Shown: positions 2,175 through 55,051 of the stretch, piece by piece
Layout: every line of letters starts with the position of its first letter
How positions within the stretch are numbered: the first letter of the stretch is position 1
Origin: Eledone cirrhosa
Lineage: Eukaryota
Direction: 5' to 3'
DNA: 64,000 nucleotides
Assembly (NCBI GenBank): GCA_964016885.1
Contig: OZ024742.1
Span: 99,014,001 to 99,078,000, forward strand
Position numbers and translations under genes: made by a program
The notes under the pieces: generated by a model
Databases searched by the model: none
Told to the model about the DNA's origin: nothing
What the model saw: only the letters and a program-made list of their open reading frames with translations

Positions 2175-2326
<152 letters not shown>

Positions 2327-2344
2327 GTATATATATGTATATAC

Positions 2345-2376
<32 letters not shown>

Positions 2377-2377
2377 A

Positions 2378-3133
2378 TATGCCATACGGTATATACATAT
2401 ACATACATATATACATGTGCATACAGGTACACATACATATATGCACGTATCAGTTTAGCGGCGCTAACGTCGCTTTGTTCGTTTGTAAACAAACTGAACA
2501 GCCTGAATTTATGCCATACGGTGTTAAGGCAACCACGTCACCTTTTTGTTCAACACTGACACAGGAACGATGTACTAGTTTCAAGCTTGTTAGCTATCAT
2601 CAGCACCGTTTACCCATCTGCCAGATAGTTGAACGTTCGAAAGTATATACTTTCCTTATGAAAATTAACGGCTGAGCAGCCTAATTTGCATATTGAGTGA
2701 GTTAAATCGGTCAGGCATACCGAAAACGATAAGTTGAAACAAAATGAAAACGAAATTTCATTTCTCACTCTTAGTATGGCACTTACTTAAATGTAAGTAT
2801 GCATGTATACGTACATACATATATGTATACAGACGTACAGTAGCATGCACATATATATATATATACATACATATATACATACATATATACATGTGCATAC
2901 AGGTACACATACATATATGCACGTATCAGTTTAGCGGCGCTAACGTCGCTTTGTTCGTTTGTAAACAAACTGAACAGCCTGAATTTATGCCATACGGTGT
3001 TAAGGCAACCACGTCACCTTTTTGTTCAACACTGACACAGGAACGATGTACTAGTTTCAAGCTTGTTAGCTATCATCAGCACCGTTTACCCATCTGCCAG
3101 ATAGTTGAACGTTTGAAAGTATATACTTTCCTT
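2378..3133 (-). mobile_element. Family C retrozyme-like element, 476 bp head-to-tail unit with two HHRs
   Basis: ~2400-2655 is repeated at ~2876-3133; each repeat carries an HHR on the minus strand. Confidence 0.8.
2568..2608 (-). ncRNA. Type I hammerhead ribozyme (minimal, palindromic stem III); identical copy at 3044-3084
   Basis: Minus strand: cggtg CTGATGA t-agct-aaca-agct-t GAAA ctag TA catcg; stem I cggtg/catcg, ACTAGT palindrome. Confidence 0.85.
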
Positions 3134-8339: not shown

Positions 8340-9945
8340 ATAACCATTCAACATCAAGCGATTGTTCCACCAAGGTAGTCCCCTCTCGTCCCAGTTGTAT
8401 GCATTGACTCTAGAGCCATTACTGCACAAACTAGAGACGTTCATGGGGCATCCCGCGCACACTGGGATGCGGAAGATCCATGTCGGCTTATGCCAACGAC
8501 GTCATCGTAGTTGTGTCGAGCGCTAAACACTTCGAGGCTATCGGTACTATACTAAGAGAATACGAGGCGGTGACAGGACCAATGATTAACCAGGAAAATT
8601 CGATGGAACTGCGGCACGGCAGCTGGAGAGGCAGGTCATTATCCTCCTATAGCGTCGTCGTCCGCTGGATGGACCTACCAGTTAAATTGCTAGGGGTTAC
8701 GTTTGGTCCGGACTACCATACGGACAAAACATGGGACGAGGTTACGGGCAGGCTGGCTTCCCTTCCCGAGAAATGGGCCAAGAGAAAGCTGTCCCTGAAA
8801 AGTCGATGAAGGTGGCGAAGACGTACATCGCATCCGTCATCTACTGCCACCTGACTGTCATGCCTTCTGCTAAGCCTCGTCTGACTGCACTGGAGTGTTT
8901 GCTGTTTCGCCTTTTGTGGAAGGGACGCACTCCAATGGTCAGACAGTCCATATGCTGTCAACACCTGCTGCATGGAGTAGTGGACATGCCATGGCTGATG
9001 ATGCGAAGACATGCGCTGAGGCTACATCTCCACATTTCCTTCAATGGTGAATAGTTTTGGTCGCTTTTCACTAGGCACAATTTTTCCCCAGCTCATTTCC
9101 TTGAGTCAAGCGAAGACTGAGAGAGAGCGCTTAAAAAGAGGAATATCTTCAAGCGCTCACTGCCCTATTACACTGCATTTCGATCGGTGGAAACTCTGCC
9201 TTGATATGCTGTAGTGGGTTAATGGAGGGTTAGTTTTACGACGTCATTGGGGAAACTCTGTGTGACAATGAAAGCCAACAGGATATTCTTTACGGGAGGG
9301 GTTACAGGCCTTGGCCCAATAATAACATCCTAAAATCCCTGGCATAGCAGTGCAACAGGGGAACGTTGCTTTTTAATGATAAACTTTAATGGCATGGAAT
9401 TTCCGTCAGCCGGGCCTGTCTGAGAAGCACGTAGGGTGACGCGACAGTCCTGTACGCACCCGTCCAGTAGCCAATGAGAAAGTGGTCGAATGGTGGACTC
9501 GTCTGAAAGGGGTGAAGACTGGAACTTTCCTTTTCGGTGACGCTCTCACTCTCTTTTTTCAGATTTCACATGAAAAGGAAAATCGGTGTGGAGAGCTAAA
9601 TGCTGCCTTCCAATCAGTTTGTTGAATGTAGGATGAGAGAGGCAAGAATGGCCCGTGTGAATGGGCCCGCTCTGAGCGTGTGCTTGTAGTATTGTAGGAG
9701 GACAGCTACGAAAGGGCGCTTTCCATGGCGGTCAGAGTTACCGTGGCTTTTGAAGGCGTTCTCTACGAACGAGTAACACTCGGTGCTCTGACCACTATTT
9801 GGGATGTTTCTTTTGTTTCCATTTTATTGGTTACATCCTTTGTTTTTGTGTACTTTTGATTTTTTTACAGGCAGAAACACAGATTTGTAACGCTCTGTGC
9901 TGTACTTAATGTATTTCTTTGCAAACATTTTTGTGGTTAATAAAG
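8340..9945 (+). pseudogene. Decayed L1/Tx1-clade LINE, RT C-terminal part and 3' end
   Basis: QGSPLSSQLYALTLEPLL at ~8371, SAYANDV (decayed YADD), KLLGVTFG, W..RKLSL; frameshifts; aataaa near 9939. Confidence 0.8.
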
Positions 9946-12609: not shown

Positions 12610-13470
12610 TTATCACTTAAAACCTAATCTATGTTTTGACCTGCTCAGGTTGTCAAGAGCACTACTTAGGAGAGACAAAAAACAGCCTCCGACAACGTAT
12701 GACCGCCCATAAATCACAAATCACAATACAGGAATACAGAAAGATTGCGTTTAGTGAACATATCGCCAATTGTGCACCCAACCAACATCTCCAAACTTTA
12801 AAATTTTCCCCATTTACAAATTCATAGACAACGCTACTTTCATCCATCGTACAAATAATGAAACGTATTTCATTAACAAATTCCAACCTCTACTTAATGC
12901 ACTAAACTTCGGACTAAACTAAAACTGGAACAAACAATCAAACATTTACAAATACCTATGTCTCTCTAAAGAGTTACAGCCCTCACACCCTACCTAATCC
13001 TTTTTCTTAAATAAATTAAATATCATATAGCATGAATTACCTCCCCCTGCATATTAACTCTCTAAAAAGGGAAATCATATCAAACCCCAGTCCACCATTT
13101 GCCTCCTTCATGAATCAACTAAGCACTCTTGCTATATTAACACATTTTGATCTGCTTATCTTCAAGAACTATGCCTGTAAATAACATTATTTTTTCTTTC
13201 ACATTGCGTTATTATGCTCCACATTACGTCCCTTTTTTTCTTTTTTCTTTTCACTTCATAAACCTTGTATGTAAATAACATTATTCTTTCTGCACCATTT
13301 CTTTAACATGTCCAACACCACCATTCTACACCAATACATATTATTATCATTTGATAATGCATAAAAATGCTGAAACCGGTAACAGACAATTATTAAATAT
13401 ATAAATAAATAACTAAATGCCATTGTTAATTAATTAATAAATCAACTAATACCTTAACACTTCACACAAA
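12610..13470 (+). pseudogene. Penelope-like element 3' remnant: GIY-YIG endonuclease plus 3' region with degenerate HHR (13351-13385)
   Basis: NLIYVLTCSGCQEHYLGETKNSLRQRMTAHK; downstream TTGATAA t-gcat-aaaa-atgc-t GAAA ccgg TA. Confidence 0.8.
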
Positions 13471-15817: not shown

Positions 15818-17178
15818 TCAGGTTATAAATTGGGTGTTGAGTTCTAGTCTATTATTGATTGGTGGTCGTGTTTTATCTATAATTAGTGCTTCCTTAATTC
15901 TAAGATTGCCGAGGTTTCTTTCCTTAGTTTCTATCCTAACTGTTATGGTTTTGTCGGTGTTTTTGCATTTAACCAGGTGTTTCTTAAATGAGGAAGCGTT
16001 AGTATTGAGGTGTTCTTTTATTCTTATGTGGAGTGGACTGGTGGTGCTACCTACGTAGAAGTTGTTGCATTTGTCACACTCTAGTCTGTATACGACGTAA
16101 GCCTGGTGGCATAGTTCTGTGTCGTTGATGGGGCAGCTGGCTAGTCTGCAGCAGTTGTCATGTCTGGTGGAGTGTCTTTTGGTTAGCTGTCCGCGTAGAG
16201 AAGGACCTGAGTGGGCCAGTTGGATATCTAGTCCCTCTCGTCTGATGGCTCTGCGGATGGCTGTTGTTGTTTCTTCACTGAAGTGTGGGAGCTTCAGGAA
16301 GCAAGTGTTAGTGCCTCGGGTGTGGTGTCCTCTGTTCTTTCTGGCACGGTTTGTGGTGGATGTCGTGTATCCGTTCAGTTTGAGTACTTCCAGGAAATGT
16401 GTGGTGTGTGTGTCTCGGTCTCTAGCGTCGGTGCATTTGTTCCGGATACGTGCCAGTTCGTTCCTTATGTATCCGAACTTGGCACCGAGGGGGAGGGCCG
16501 ATCTGAAATGGACGAACAGGTCCCTGCTGGCGGCTTTTTTATAGAAGCAAGTGTGGATGTTGCCTTCCTCTGTTACCCTGAGTTGGAAGTCCAGTATGGA
16601 TAGGGATCCGCGGTCATCGGGGTGTTCCATGCTGAACTTTATACTGGCGTCCATGCTGGAGAATGTTGTGTATATTTTATCTGCCTCCTCACGGGATGAT
16701 GTGAGGATGAGTATGTCATCTACATATCGGGTGAAGAAGGCATGGGAATGGCAGGTTTTGAGGGCTCGGGATTCTAGCTGGTTCCTGTAGGTAATGGCCA
16801 GCAGGCCCGATAAGCTGGATCCCATGGGTAATCCTGTTGTCTGTCTGTATGTGTGGTGGTGGAAGGTGAAGTACGTGTTGTCTACTGTGAAGGACAAAAG
16901 CTGGTGTATGTCCGTCGGGTGGAGGCCGTAGCAGTGGGTGTCCTCTGCGACCACGCAGTCCGTCAATAAATCGACAGTTGGATGAGTGGGGACTGTAGTG
17001 TAGAGGGAAACAACGTCTAGGCTAAAAGCGTATATATTTAGTTTAAGTTGTTCTGGCTGGAGTTGGTGTAGTCTACGTATAACTTCGTCGGAGCTACTGA
17101 CATGCCCGGGAAAGGTGGAGAGTAGAGGCTTGAGGACCTGGGAGAGGAGCCAGGAAATTTTGTTTAGGGGTCCTTCTA
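15818..17178 (-). CDS. Penelope-like RT + GIY-YIG endonuclease, N-terminally truncated, uninterrupted frame
   Basis: SLDVVSLYT, GLPMGSSLS, RYVDD; Cys-rich linker CCRLASCP..LC; VVYRLECDKCNNFYVGST..LHIRIKEH; KEALII..PPIN. The first ~67 aa of the called 520 aa ORF are antisense of the inverted arm. Confidence 0.93.
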
Positions 17179-18378
17179 TGCCAAGTTCGGATACATAAGG
17201 AACGAACTGGCACGTATCCGGAACAAATGCACCGACGCTAGAGACCGAGACACACACACCACACATTTCCTGGAAGTACTCAAACTGAACGGATACACGA
17301 CATCCACCACAAACCGTGCCAGAAAGAACAGAGAACACCACACCCGAGGCACTAACACTTGCTTCCTGAAGCTCCCACACTTCAGTGAAGAAACAACAAC
17401 AGCCATCCGCAGAGCCATCAGACGAGAGGGACTAGATATCCAACTGGCCCACTCAGGTCCTTCTCTACGCGGACAGCTAACCAAAAGACATTCCACCAGA
17501 CATGACAATTCCTGCAGACTAGCCAAATGCCCTATCAACGACACAGAACTATGCCACCAGGCTTACGTCGTATACAGACTAGAGTGTGACAAATGCAACA
17601 ACTTCTACGTAGGTAGCACCACCAGACCACTCCACATAAGAATAAAAGAAAACCTCAATACTAACGCTTCCTCATTTAAGAAACACCTAGTTAAATGCAA
17701 AAACACCGAGAAAACCATAAAAGTTAGGATAGAAACTAAGGAAAGAAACCTCGGCAATCTTAGAATTAAGGAAGCACTAATTATAGATAAAACACGACCA
17801 CCAATCAATAATAGACTAGAACTCAACACCCAATTTATAACCTGATAGGGCTTCTAGCCCCATAATTACACACCCCACACACACACACGCTTACACCTCC
17901 ACTTATTCTCTCTCACACATACACACACAAAACCAGTTCTAACACCAGATAACACCTATCCCCCACATTTACGAATAGACTTATCTTCTCACACTCACAC
18001 ACACACACTCACATACTTACACCTTCATACATCCGCCCACACACTTAAACAGGCATGTATATAAAAAATAAAAAATAAAAACCCTAAACAAACCCCTTTT
18101 AAAGGGAGACTACTCTTTATCCATCTAATTTTAACTCTTTGACATTAGAGATAGAACAGATACTCTATACTATTTCCTGTCAGCATGGCTTGGCAAGATA
18201 TTTAGAAGGTGGTTTGAGACCTTTACTTCACTCTGAAGAAGAGATATTATCTCGAAAATTAAGGACATTTAAATAAATCTAAGGTAAAAGACGATTTGTC
18301 AACAATATCTTTTGCAATTGCATTCTTTTTTCTATGTCCATACCTGCATTGTTTTGGCTTTATTATACATATTCAAAC

Positions 18379-50701: not shown

Positions 50702-50740
<39 letters not shown>

Positions 50741-50745
<5 letters not shown>

Positions 50746-51079
50746 GTATAAATATTTCGTATCTCAAAAGAAATACGGTTTTAGGAAGCCTTTGCTATGC
50801 AAACACCGGGGGGCTAACGCCCTCCGGTGATGTCCAGCAGAAGCAAGGGGGACAACCGTCTATGCATTTCAGGCTTAACTGATCTTCGCCAGGACGGTTG
50901 CGACTGCTGGACTAGAAGACAGCCGAGAATATATACTTTTCTCGTCTGTGTAAATGAGGTGATTAATCTCATTTGCATATGAAGCTGCATAAATTGGCTC
51001 AACTTTTAATAAAAAAGAAATAGGATTTCGCTTCAAGCATAGCTTTATACAATATGTATAAATATTTCTTATCTCAAAA
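50741..51079 (-). mobile_element. 310 bp highly structured retrozyme-like monomer with 29 bp terminal redundancy; HHR at 50853-50900
   Basis: Minus strand: caaccgtc CTGGCGA ag...ct GAAA tgca TA gacggttg; four further stems; direct repeats 50741-50769 and 51051-51079. Confidence 0.7.
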
Positions 51080-51259
51080 ATAACCATACTGCATCCGGGT
51101 TAAGAAGGGGCGTGTCCATGCCTTAAGCAGAGGAGCCTGTTCGAAAAACATGATTTTCGATCTTCATTTCATGCCTCAAAAATTGGGGATAGGTCTGCGA
51201 TATGTACTGGGAGGCGTGGGATGGACGTACAAAGATTGTGTCCCGAAACACCAAAAAGG

Positions 51260-53150
51260 ATCAACTGACAATTGGTACCTGGAACATCACAACTGTTAGA
51301 GGTAAACAGCAGAAACTAGTGAAGGAGGATAGATGATGCGGGCTAGATATATTCAGGGATTCCTCAAAAAAGTTCCGTGGTTCTGATACTGTTGATTTGG
51401 ATGGAGGATGGAAACACCACAATTAAGCTGTGGCACAGAAATGTGTGCACTCACTAGCCCCGGCTGTCAGAATGTGTTATCTACGCTATCCAATGAGGAG
51501 GGAGGATATGCCCCATGAAGCTTAAGCTGAAAGATAGGTCTCTATAGATGGAGCATGTTTAATCAAGCCAGACACGGAGTCCGAATAATGATCCTTCCTT
51601 CATGAAGTCACTGTAGCGTTAGCGGCTGTTAAGACCGAGCCATATAACCTGATGGGAGACTATAATGCACATGTTGGCACAGATAAACTGACAGAGAAAG
51701 GAGTGATTGGAAGGAATGCAGAACATAATCTGAATGCGGAAGGAGAGACCATATTAGACTTCTATTCTAGCAATGGACTATCTATGATGAACTCTTATTT
51801 CCAGCATTAGGCATTCATAAACGTACATGATAAACAAGAGAAGGGATGATCTGTCAACAGATCACCATTTAGTTATCTGCAACTTGAAAATTTGTGAAGC
51901 CAAAACAGCCCACAAAACTGACAGGTCTACAGTGACCTACAAACATTGGTGGATAAGAAAGCATTGGGAAGCATTGGTGGATAAGAAAGTCAGGACAAGG
52001 TATGCATCCAAATTCTGAGAAATCCCTGATCAAACTGACGACGTTGAGACAGAGTGGAGGTTGTTCAGCTCAGTAATTTCTGTTTCAGCTGTTAAAAGCT
52101 TGCAGGCGAAAGAGGCTTGATGCGGTGCTGGATGGCAGGAGGGCCCCTTTTTTTCAATCAAAAGGGCAAAAGTGCCATCCGAGCAAAGAAGGAGGCCTAC
52201 AAAGCTTGGTTTGGTAATAAGTCCTCCTTCTTGCACTTGTTGTTCAAGCAGGCACTGAAAATCGCAGCAGAGACAGTTAAAGCGTCCAAAGATAAGACAT
52301 GGGAGGACTTTGAGTTTAAGCTGGAATCCGACTTCAGACTAGCAAATAAATTGTTCTGGCAAACCATCCACCGACTTCGGAATAAAAAGCCCACATCACA
52401 CCTACTATCAAGAACGCATCTGGTGTTCTCTCTCCAGAGAGGAGCATCCTCGCGAGATGGAGAGAATATTTTTGGTGATCTCTTAAACCCCATCACAACA
52501 GCATTTTATTATATACAATGGTGCATCTTGGAGATGTGACTGATCTCTCAGAGGCTGAGCTCACAAGAGCAATCACAGAGCTCAAATGTGACAAAGCCGT
52601 TGGAGAAGATGAAATCCGGCCCGAGATGTCAAATGTCGTAAATAGAAAAAGTATTGCCTGACTCATTCGTACCGAGTGGCCTGGATCTCTGGCAATACAC
52701 CTAAGCAATGGCAATCGGGAATGATAATCTCAATTTTCAGAAAGGGAGACAAGAGATATTTTTCCAAATACAGAAGCCTCCCACGTAATGTTTATGCTAA
52801 GTGTCTGGCAAATAGATGAAGCGAAATTGTCGTATCCAGCGTTTCTCTCCCCAGACGCACCAGAGCCGACCACATATTCACACTGCTGCAAGTATTCGAT
52901 AAATCGTGGGTGTTTTGCCAAGAGGTATATTCTTGTTTTGTCGACGTTGAAAAGGCATATGACGACATTCCACGGGACCTGCTGTGGAAGGTTCTGCAGG
53001 ACTATGTCGTCGATGGTCAGCTGCTTGCTGCCCTATACGAATGTCCGAATATTTGTGTTTGTATAAGTGGTACTAAATTGAAACCATTCAATGTGGGAAT
53101 CAGAGTCCGCCAAGGATGCGCATTGTCACCTCTACTGTTCATTACGTACA
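51260..53150 (+). pseudogene. Decayed RTE-clade LINE (APE + RT)
   Basis: IGTWNITT, MGDYNAHVG, TDHHLV, CFVDVEKAYDDIPR, RQGCALSPLLFITY; many stops. Confidence 0.85.
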
Positions 53151-55051
53151 CGCCTCCTGTGTGTGTGTAAAAGGTAAACAGAAATAACACAATCGGTACA
53201 GTACACATACACACAAGTAAGAAATGCGAGTCGTATTTCAGGACACTTAAATATACTCATAATAAATTTCCTTAAATATCCGTCGCCGCCCCCTGTACAT
53301 ACATGTCCATACATAAATATACATACATATACATATTAATACATTACAGATACATGCGTGTGTTTATATATATATATATATATATATACAGTGAGAGAGA
53401 GAGAATATGAGAGGAACAGAGAGAGAGAGAGGGAGCTAGAGTGAGTGTGGGTGTAAGAGTCATAGTCAGTGAGTGAAAGAGAATGTGAATGTGAGAGATA
53501 GAGAGTGAGGGAGTGAGACAGGAAGCAGCAATACATACAAAAGATTCAACCTGTTGAATATACCTCATTCAAATGTATTGGATTTCATTTCCTTTTGAAG
53601 TTGTTGAACGTGTTGAAGTCGATGGCAGGAATTAAATAAAGGATTAAAGAAGGAAAGTATAAAAAGATGCAAATGATAATCTTTTTTGTGTGATGATAAA
53701 ACCTTGTCACCGAAACATCACAGGATTATTCCTTCTTTTATGTTATTGCTAACAATTGGACGGTAGGGGAGATACCTGGGTGGGGAGGATTTGAACTCTT
53801 ACGTTAGTTATCTTGTCTTTTATTCCTACCGTTATTATTTCTACCCTATATCACATGATGTGTAGTTGTTGTTGCCAATGACTATTATAATACAATGTGG
53901 TTACAACAATACATGTACATACATATACATAAGATATCTAGGTAGGAAGATATAGGTGGATTTAATGCGCTTCTCCCTCCTCTTCTTTCTCCTTCCTATT
54001 CCTTCTGAGATGTTTTCGCTTTCTGCTTTCTCCCTTCTTGCCCTTTACTTTTCACTTTCTTCTCATTCTTCGTCTTCTTTTATTGTTGCAATATATCATA
54101 TATCATGTTATTGTTACTGTGATGTTTATTGTTGTCGCGCAGTATTATGCTGCAGAATTAAATAACCAGTCAAACACACAGCCGTGAAACTAATCCTTTT
54201 GTAATATAAAAACAAGACTTTTATATATATAATTACTCATTATGTCTCCAGCCAACAATTGGGTTTATATGGAGTTAATTGATCTGCTGAATAAAGCATC
54301 CAGTGCTTTTTAAACAATAACATATCATTTCTACAATATTGGACGCTGACATGGCTGCGTGGTTAAGAAGACTCGCAAACCTGCGACTTTTACATGTCAC
54401 TCAAATTCAGTCTACCAACACATGCGGTTGATCTTACGCTGGATTTTCGTAACGCCAAACCAGGTTAATTTATGATATCAGGTTATTTATGATATCAGAT
54501 TTGGTTGCCTTTACGGTGGACTCATTGAACGACGCATGAAACCGAACCCAGCTCCTCCGGCCTTTGTCCAAACAGTTCCATAATAGAACATAGAAAACAA
54601 GCGACGAAATTAAAAGTATTATTTAGTATTGTTCGTTATATGCGGCAAATGACGTAGTAAAAGGTCCGCAAGTATTGAGGGAGTCGCAGTGGTGTCGTGC
54701 TGATACACGGCGAAGGTTGGGCATTTAAAACCTGGCGGAGGCCATCAATATCCAGGTAGTATCACAGCTAACTTCTACAAGAAAAATAAAGAGAGTGGGC
54801 GCAAGAGCGGGAGGGAGAAAGGAGACAGGAAATGAAAGAAAGATGGAGAAGAATAGACCTCAGTACTTGATTAACACTTTATTGGTAAACTGCGAAAAAG
54901 AAAAGACACAAGTGACTTCAGTGCAACTTGAAATCTGAGCGCAGCTAGCCGGAACAAATTCACAACCACTTTTACTCCAACGCCTTTATGTATTTATGTA
55001 TGGAAATAGGACTTTATCAATGTTTACATCATAAATATTTTATCTATGTAA

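What the first reader, a model, noticed from the sequence alone, without database searches (positions are those of the whole stretch)
50741..51079. 310 nt structured HHR monomer with 29 nt terminal redundancy, a possible cDNA of a circular RNA
Seen: stems at 50804-50829 (11 bp), 50832-50840/50904-50912, 50853-50860/50893-50900 (HHR stem I), 50919-50949 and 50952-50974. The minus-strand HHR has an AUGCAU palindromic stem III and one core change (CUGGCGA). The HHR is mid-unit and the ends repeat 29 nt. Established: animal non-LTR retrozymes are a few hundred nt and form circular RNAs. Inferred: reverse transcription ran just over one turn of a circle; a long target-site duplication is the alternative.
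Basis: partly seen in the sequence, partly recalled or inferred. Interest (0 to 1): 0.7.

Follow-up and report, generated by a model that had tools for sequence, protein, structure and literature searches.

The report
Penelope-copied hammerhead retrozyme, 1.09 turns
This is a damaged copy of a 323-base ribozyme-bearing repeat present in well over a thousand places in the genome, and the ends of those copies carry the footprint of Penelope-type jumping genes, which likely copied them from a small circular RNA.

Summary
In detail: 29-nt ends (28/29 identical), the listed stems and a minus-strand type I hammerhead are all there. It is one copy of a family with a 323-nt head-to-tail unit (1,394-1,523 exact 19-mer hits). 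This copy lost 13 nt and changed core CUGACGA to CUGGCGA, so it is likely dead. The 29-mer is internal in other copies, so it is not a target duplication. Copies end at two sites 43 nt apart (about +119 and +162 from the cleavage site), mostly against (TA)n. About 60% are back-to-back inverted arms, one per site (27 of 29 informative pairs). This is the Penelope-like-element (PLE) 'tail' signature, and a GIY-YIG PLE of the same genome shows nearly the same geometry. cDNAs run through the cleavage site without stopping (79 of 83), and rare variants recur in successive turns (17 vs 2.7 expected). That favours a circular template, but an uncleaved linear multimer is not excluded. No RNA run was listed and no sequence-related autonomous partner was found. 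Verdict: a new non-LTR retrozyme family, with unusually direct genomic evidence for PLE mobilisation.

The parts
50741..51079 (-). Whole insertion: 1.09 turns of the 323-nt unit (unit positions 92 to 323, then 1 to 120; position 1 = first base after the cleavage site); 12 substitutions and a 13-nt deletion against the family majority
50741..50769 (-). 3' end of the copy (unit 92-120), ending at priming site S1 (about +119)
51051..51079 (-). 5' end of the copy (unit 92-120 of the previous turn), a random truncation point; carries the same rare u95 T variant as the other 29-mer; its last 4 nt overlap an A-run of the flanking LINE
51009..51050 (-). 'Tail' between priming sites S1 and S2 (unit 121-162); internal in this copy, terminal in about half of the family's outer ends
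50855..50898 (-). Type I hammerhead: stem I 50898-50893 with 50860-50855; core 50892-50886 (A6 changed to G in this copy); stem II 50885-50871 (two changes here); GAAA 50870-50867; palindromic AUGCAU 50867-50862; cleavage site between 50861 and 50860
50898..50899 (-). Site of the 13-nt deletion in the extended stem I 5' arm
50832..50912 (-). 9-bp helix (50832-50840 with 50904-50912) that closes the ribozyme domain
50711..50740 (.). (TA)n microsatellite at the 3' end, the likely target that primed reverse transcription
   Evidence: family pattern
51080..53170 (+). Flank, not part of the element: 5'-incomplete, decayed LINE (copies about 75% identical; RVT_1 in 52820-53167)

Best explanation
This is a 5'-truncated, likely inactive copy of a non-coding 323-nt hammerhead repeat (a non-LTR retrozyme) that was likely reverse-transcribed by a Penelope-like element's RT-endonuclease from a template that is probably a circular RNA. 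Steps: (1) Inferred: loci with two ribozymes in tandem are transcribed and self-cleave, probably as dimeric hammerheads, into 323-nt monomers that are ligated into circles. (2) Inferred from copy ends: a PLE protein nicks (TA)n DNA and starts cDNA inside the RNA at one of two sites, about +119 and +162 from the cleavage site. (3) Shown as DNA pattern: cDNA runs back through the cleavage junction for 0.1-2.6 turns and stops at scattered points. (4) Shown as pattern, inferred as mechanism: in about 60% of insertions both target strands are extended, one from each site, and the two cDNAs are joined back to back. The window copy is a single arm primed at +119 that stopped after 1.09 turns; the 29-nt redundancy is that overshoot.
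For: Copy number: 1,394 exact 19-mers across the cleavage site, 1,523 at unit 57-75, 994 at unit 166-184; reversed controls 0. Ends: 106 of 137 outer 3' ends fall at S1 or S2 and 107 of 137 abut a microsatellite. In the overlapping set, 89 of 115 are at S1/S2 and 0 of 115 lie within 7 nt of the cleavage site. Inverted insertions: 52 of 85; where both ends are at S1/S2, 27 are S1+S2 and 2 are same-site; 22 vs 1 (binomial p 3e-6). Published PLE signature: two RT start sites delimit the tail, both strands are extended, AT-rich targets (PMC11167929); an inverted 5'-truncated copy, with the tail often at one end only (PMC8557442). In-genome control: an RT + GIY-YIG PLE family (6,848 hits) ends at about +123-128 and +162-175 after its own hammerhead, with 7 S1+S2 pairs vs 1 same-site. 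Continuity: of 83 arms reaching the junction window, 4 end there and 79 pass, with no rise in hazard; 48 of 54 junctions keep the exact length. Same template per turn: rare variants shared by successive turns, 17 vs 2.7 expected; the window's u95 T is in both 29-mers and, with u36 G, in all three passes of L016. Functional ribozyme: stem II (4 of 4 pairs) and stem I (2 of 6) show two-sided changes across subfamilies 60-99% alike. 11 held loci carry two intact cores in tandem.
Against: No RNA evidence of any kind, so expression, cleavage and circularity are untested. No autonomous PLE with sequence similarity to the unit was found among 48 GIY-YIG loci or beside 50 older-subfamily loci; the link is architecture only. 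In the one PLE tested in vitro, uncleaved linear RNA was the main substrate and ribozyme mutants still inserted, which favours the linear rival. A 10-unit tandem array exists (L177), so linear multimers are possible. 494 rare variants sit in one turn only; I read these as later decay, but did not prove it. 31 of 137 outer ends are at neither site. Both priming sites are AU-rich, so microhomology with (TA)n may blur or partly explain their position. Covariation rows were chosen by motif, and the count of covarying pairs does not beat shuffles (83 of 500).
Confidence: 0.72

Rival explanations
1. Same family and same PLE machinery, but the template is an uncleaved linear multimer read through tandem loci. 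The repeat then behaves as an ORF-less PLE (pLTR-only partial tandems), and circles, if made, are by-products.
For: Unprocessed RNA was the dominant substrate for Anolis Poseidon in vitro. Multi-unit loci exist, up to about 10 units. Run-through of the cleavage site is equally expected.
Against: With internal priming and 5' truncation, linear multimers can only shrink each generation (inference), yet the head-to-tail unit persists from subfamilies about 60% alike to 99% alike. Rare variants are shared between turns 6-fold above chance. Only one array longer than 3 units was seen among the 40 candidates scored with a 2.3-unit query, and its u291 variant is in 18 of 191 arms.
Confidence: 0.2
2. 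The template is the self-cleaved linear monomer; RT reaches the 5' end at the cleavage site and jumps to a second monomer.
For: It would also give shared variants if both RNAs came from one locus. Template jumping by non-LTR RTs is recalled, not tested here.
Against: No pile-up of 5' ends at the cleavage site (4 of 83) and no systematic junction scar (48 of 54 exact length).
Confidence: 0.04
3. Mobilised by a LINE (for example the RTE-like neighbour) as a SINE-like passenger.
For: The copy abuts a LINE; LINEs also give 5' inversions (recalled).
Against: The neighbour's copies are about 75% identical, far older than the 2-4% diverged young family. There is no poly(A) or shared 3' end, 5' flanks of 41 single-direction copies share no common parent, and the inverted arms overlap in unit coordinates and use two fixed sites.
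Confidence: 0.03
4. The 29-nt repeat is a long target-site duplication around a 281-nt insert.
For: Only that it is a direct repeat at both ends of this one copy.
Against: The 29-mer is continuous with the unit on both sides in other copies.
Confidence: 0.01

Closest known systems
Metazoan non-LTR retrozymes (Cervera and de la Pena 2020, PMC7229834; coral, mussel, axolotl)
   Same: Non-coding 150-450 nt unit, under 50% GC, highly self-paired, one canonical type I hammerhead per unit with a short palindromic stem III, head-to-tail repeats, thousands of copies, PLEs in the same genome.
   Different: Most copies here are dispersed, permuted arms of 0.1-2.6 units, often inverted back to back, rather than arrays. 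No TSD is visible. Circular RNA was shown by northern blot there and is untested here.
Penelope-like elements, pLTR/tail architecture (Poseidon of Anolis, PMC11167929; Neptune, Naiad, PMC8557442)
   Same: Two internal RT start sites delimiting a tail (43 nt here, 30-40 nt published), hammerhead upstream of them, inverted 5'-truncated arm, tail on one side, (TA)n targets.
   Different: No ORF; the unit closes on itself after 323 nt. The hammerhead is canonical (stem I 6 bp, stem II 4 bp) rather than the minimal PLE variant (PMC4209133).
Xenopus retrozymes as non-autonomous PLE derivatives (bioRxiv 10.64898/2026.07.22.740005)
   Same: Proposes the same partnership; monomers are dispersed and multimers are rare.
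   Different: That link rests on pLTR homology and co-occurrence. Here homology was not found, and the link rests on insertion ends, which the parts I read do not analyse.
Non-autonomous Chlamys elements such as MRC1 (PMC8557442)
   Same: Non-coding PLE passengers with head-to-tail copies.
   Different: Described as lacking canonical hammerheads and as sharing 3' ends with their autonomous partners.

Membership tests
non-LTR retrozyme | Type I hammerhead with conserved core in each unit | tested here: met
   Family CUGANGA in 40 of 53, covarying stems. Not met in the window copy itself (CUGGCGA). No Rfam hit.
non-LTR retrozyme | Non-coding unit of 150-450 nt, GC under 50%, no LTR | tested here: met
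   323-nt unit that wraps onto itself; no shared flanking parent sequence.
non-LTR retrozyme | Head-to-tail copies with two or more ribozymes | tested here: met
   11 held loci with two intact cores in tandem; one array of about 10 units. These are a minority of insertions.
non-LTR retrozyme | Self-cleavage of the transcript | not testable with these tools
   Needs in vitro transcription.
non-LTR retrozyme | Accumulates as monomeric circular RNA | not testable with these tools
   Indirect DNA evidence only.
non-autonomous Penelope-like element | Two 3' ends delimiting a 30-40 nt tail | tested here: met
   Ends at about +119 and +162, 43 nt apart.
non-autonomous Penelope-like element | Partial tandem and inverted 5'-truncated copies, tail on one side | tested here: met
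   52 of 85 inverted; 27 of 29 informative pairs use one site each.
non-autonomous Penelope-like element | Insertion into AT-rich or (TA)n targets | tested here: met
   107 of 137 outer ends abut a microsatellite; no genome background computed.
non-autonomous Penelope-like element | Sequence homology to the pLTR of an autonomous PLE | tested here: inconclusive
   None in 48 loci drawn from the 150 scored of 10,597 GIY-YIG candidates; the sample is small. One family matches in geometry only.
autonomous PLE | RT + GIY-YIG ORF | tested here: not met
   The unit joins to itself; no PLE ORF is attached upstream in the older-subfamily loci searched.

The most novel reading that the evidence does not exclude
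A ribozyme-made circular RNA has parasitised Penelope RT-endonucleases across a long succession of subfamilies, mimicking the geometry of their two priming sites without detectable shared sequence. Each inverted insertion records a two-headed reaction in which one RT starts at +119 and the other at +162 on the same circle. The family would be a genomic record of rolling-circle, two-strand target-primed reverse transcription, and a minimal 323-nt substrate for PLE-based insertion.
Probability: 0.35. Interest if true: 0.72.

Novelty: new member of a known kind. Interest (0 to 1): 0.5.

Why it matters
Which enzyme moves animal retrozymes, and whether their circles are the template, were left open in PMC7229834; the 2026 preprint argues for PLEs from homology and co-occurrence. 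This family shows the PLE priming signature in its own insertion ends, next to an autonomous PLE with matching geometry. That gives a defined RNA, defined start sites and a candidate protein for a direct test. The one-site-per-arm rule also constrains how PLEs build their inverted ends. The single copy in the window is ordinary decayed repeat DNA.

Tried and rejected
Rfam: no hammerhead family hit on the window region or on an intact copy; only microsatellite-driven miRNA noise. RNA: no RNA holder listed. The three listed runs are contigs of one sample; laying them shows only that the family and its head-to-tail joint exist in that data, which is no evidence on expression and not independent. 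Partner hunt: GIY-YIG loci gave only low-complexity matches; sister-hammerhead loci and the oldest subfamily were again ORF-less units. Chimera with the flanking LINE: rejected, because the LINE is much older and its other copies continue upstream in unrelated sequence; its missing upstream part was not found in the window. The first 30 loci and those are biased to long copies, so end statistics come from pattern-anchored sets. The set is anchored on the cleavage junction and cannot test stops there, so one search used another anchor; junction substitution rates are biased for the same reason and were replaced. Antisense RNA as template: both strands fold equally well (z -8.4), but the fixed ends are 3' ends only in ribozyme sense. 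Earlier findings of this scan: none. Two short endonuclease-like LINE frames gave no Pfam hit.

Full report
Observation. The 339-nt stretch 50741-51079 has 29-nt ends identical at 28 positions and 310 nt apart. The listed stems are present and both strands fold far better than shuffles (z -6.5 minus, -9.1 plus). The minus strand holds a type I hammerhead: stem I, CUGGCGA, stem II, GAAA, palindromic AUGCAU, with the cleavage site between 50861 and 50860. This is the canonical animal form (helix I 6 bp, helix II 4 bp, a 1-2 bp helix III with a palindromic loop, thought to work as a dimer; PMC4209133). Rfam does not score it. The left flank is (TA)n. The right flank is an old LINE whose copies are about 75% alike and extend further upstream elsewhere. 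The genome is 3.0 Gb; I guess an octopus from its repeats, which is untested.

A family, not a single locus. A search of the own genome gave 1,805 candidates, 40 scored. Exact 19-mers occur 1,394 times across the cleavage site, 1,523 times at unit 57-75 and 994 times at unit 166-184, with 0 reversed-control hits. The majority of 56 full-length matches defines a 323-nt unit. The window copy differs by 12 substitutions and a 13-nt deletion in the extended stem I arm. The family core is CUGANGA in 40 of 53 copies and CUGGCGA in none. So this copy has one damaged ribozyme and could not release a monomer. The 29-mer is continuous with the unit on both sides in other copies, which refutes a target duplication. 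A degenerate pattern finds 2,365 related cores (control 6). Loci from it and show older subfamilies 60-85% alike, with the same self-closing unit and the same two ends. Across 33 aligned rows, 92.8% of cells pair, and all 4 stem II pairs and 2 of 6 stem I pairs change on both sides. The covariation score beats 500 of 500 shuffles, but the number of covarying pairs does not (83 of 500), and rows were chosen by motif.

Where copies end. With position 1 as the base after cleavage, I mapped 85 insertions drawn from the first 100 listed hits (clusters touching a locus edge were dropped). Of 137 outer 3' ends in ribozyme sense, 52 lie at S1 (112-127, mode 119), 54 at S2 (149-166, mode 162) and 31 elsewhere; 107 abut a microsatellite. 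52 insertions are two arms back to back with 3' ends outward. Of these, 27 pair S1 with S2, 2 use the same site twice, and 23 have at least one other end. The partly overlapping set (70 insertions from 67 loci, 3 duplicates dropped) gives 45 inverted, 22 vs 1, and no outer end within 7 nt of the cleavage site. 5' ends are scattered round the unit. Of 78 inversion joints, 39 overlap by at least 1 nt, 11 are blunt and 28 have filler. The window copy is a single arm ending at S1.

This is the PLE signature. In the Anolis Poseidon element, RT starts at two internal sites that delimit the genomic tail, cuts AT-rich DNA and extends both strands (PMC11167929). PLE insertions often carry an inverted 5'-truncated copy and a 30-40 bp tail at one end only (PMC8557442). 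This genome has 10,597 GIY-YIG candidates; ORFs with RT plus a C-terminal GIY-YIG were confirmed, and most have an upstream CxxC motif as described for the Neptune and Nematis clades. One such family (L160, L164, L165, L168, L174, L176; 6,848 hits) has a hammerhead with its own palindrome. Of its 33 arms, 13 end at about +123-128, 16 at +162-175 and 4 elsewhere; of 10 inverted pairs, 7 are S1+S2, 1 is same-site and 2 have another end. Two other PLE families end at other distances (about +76/+142 and about +200). The match is in geometry only: the unit has no meaningful sequence match in 48 GIY-YIG loci. The partner is therefore a candidate, not identified.

Circle or linear template. Of 98 arms primed at S1/S2 that reach position 57, 83 reach the junction window, 4 end in it and 79 pass, at the same hazard as neighbouring windows. 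48 of 54 junctions, in loci not anchored there, keep the exact length. So cleaved linear monomers were not the template. At 18 polymorphic non-CpG sites, successive turns share the minor allele 41 times and disagree 28 times; adjacent arms 57 and 28; random pairs 522 and 6,436. Rare variants are shared between turns 17 times in 9,820 site pairs against 2.7 expected, while 494 are in one turn only. The window copy carries the rare u95 T in both 29-mers, and L016 carries u95 T and u36 G in all three passes. A monomer circle explains this most simply. A linear multimer from a homogeneous tandem locus also fits: 11 held loci have two intact cores, one array has about 10 units, and Poseidon preferred uncleaved RNA in vitro. 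Against it, internal priming plus truncation can only shorten multimers, yet the unit has persisted through many subfamilies (inference). I put the circle at roughly three to one over the linear multimer.

Comparison and novelty. It meets the sequence-level definition of a non-LTR retrozyme (PMC7229834) and the insertion-level definition of a PLE passenger. Self-cleavage and circular RNA are untested. The PLE partnership was proposed in 2020 and supported by homology in Xenopus in a 2026 preprint. In six searches of the held library I found no description of this family and no analysis of priming sites or inverted arms in retrozyme insertions. The library lacks most subscription papers and repeat databases, and I saw no supplements, where such a family could be listed. 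What I read: the preprint, parts 1-3 of 5; PMC11167929, parts 1-2 of 4; PMC4209133, part 1 of 4; PMC7229834, passages plus sections 14 and 17; PMC8557442 and PMC6431247, passages; other papers as listings only.

Verdict. The feature is real, and it is a new member of a known kind. The window copy is a dead insertion. The value lies in the family's ends, which make the retrozyme-PLE-circle model directly testable. Interest 0.5.

Noticed in passing
window 2315-3133 (-): Two identical type I hammerhead motifs with palindrome ACUAGU at about 2603 and 3079, inside a 340-nt direct repeat (91% alike) between (TA)n tracts: a second retrozyme- or pLTR-like family.
   Followed up: partly
window 15821-17209 (-): PLE ORF fragment 93% identical in protein to the RT + GIY-YIG ORF of L171.
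   Followed up: no
window 8447-9680 (+) and 12621-12788 (+): Fragments of Neptune-like PLE ORFs.
   Followed up: no
window about 61397 (-); L161, L162, L170, L172: Hammerhead variant with UUGAAAA core (the U3-A8 type of PMC4209133) and ACCGGU palindrome, at the 3' end of a PLE family whose copies end at about +76 and +142.
   Followed up: partly
L314-L343: Many copies of the candidate partner PLE stop 56-73 nt upstream of its cleavage site, at a hairpin, giving short inverted elements.
   Followed up: no
L140:975-1313, L176, L179: Another hammerhead-bearing repeat nested in (TA)n, with two ends about 60 nt apart.
   Followed up: no
L177:2131-5435: Array of about 10 units with internal deletions filled by C-runs, the only long tandem seen.
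   Followed up: partly
L003:1154-1851: Two variants shared by the inverted arm and the second turn of the other arm but absent from its first turn: possible gene conversion or a mixed template.
   Followed up: no
G000:C1:143.35-143.97 Mb: Family hits recur about every 59 kb, suggesting a large tandem segmental repeat (L079, L080).
   Followed up: no
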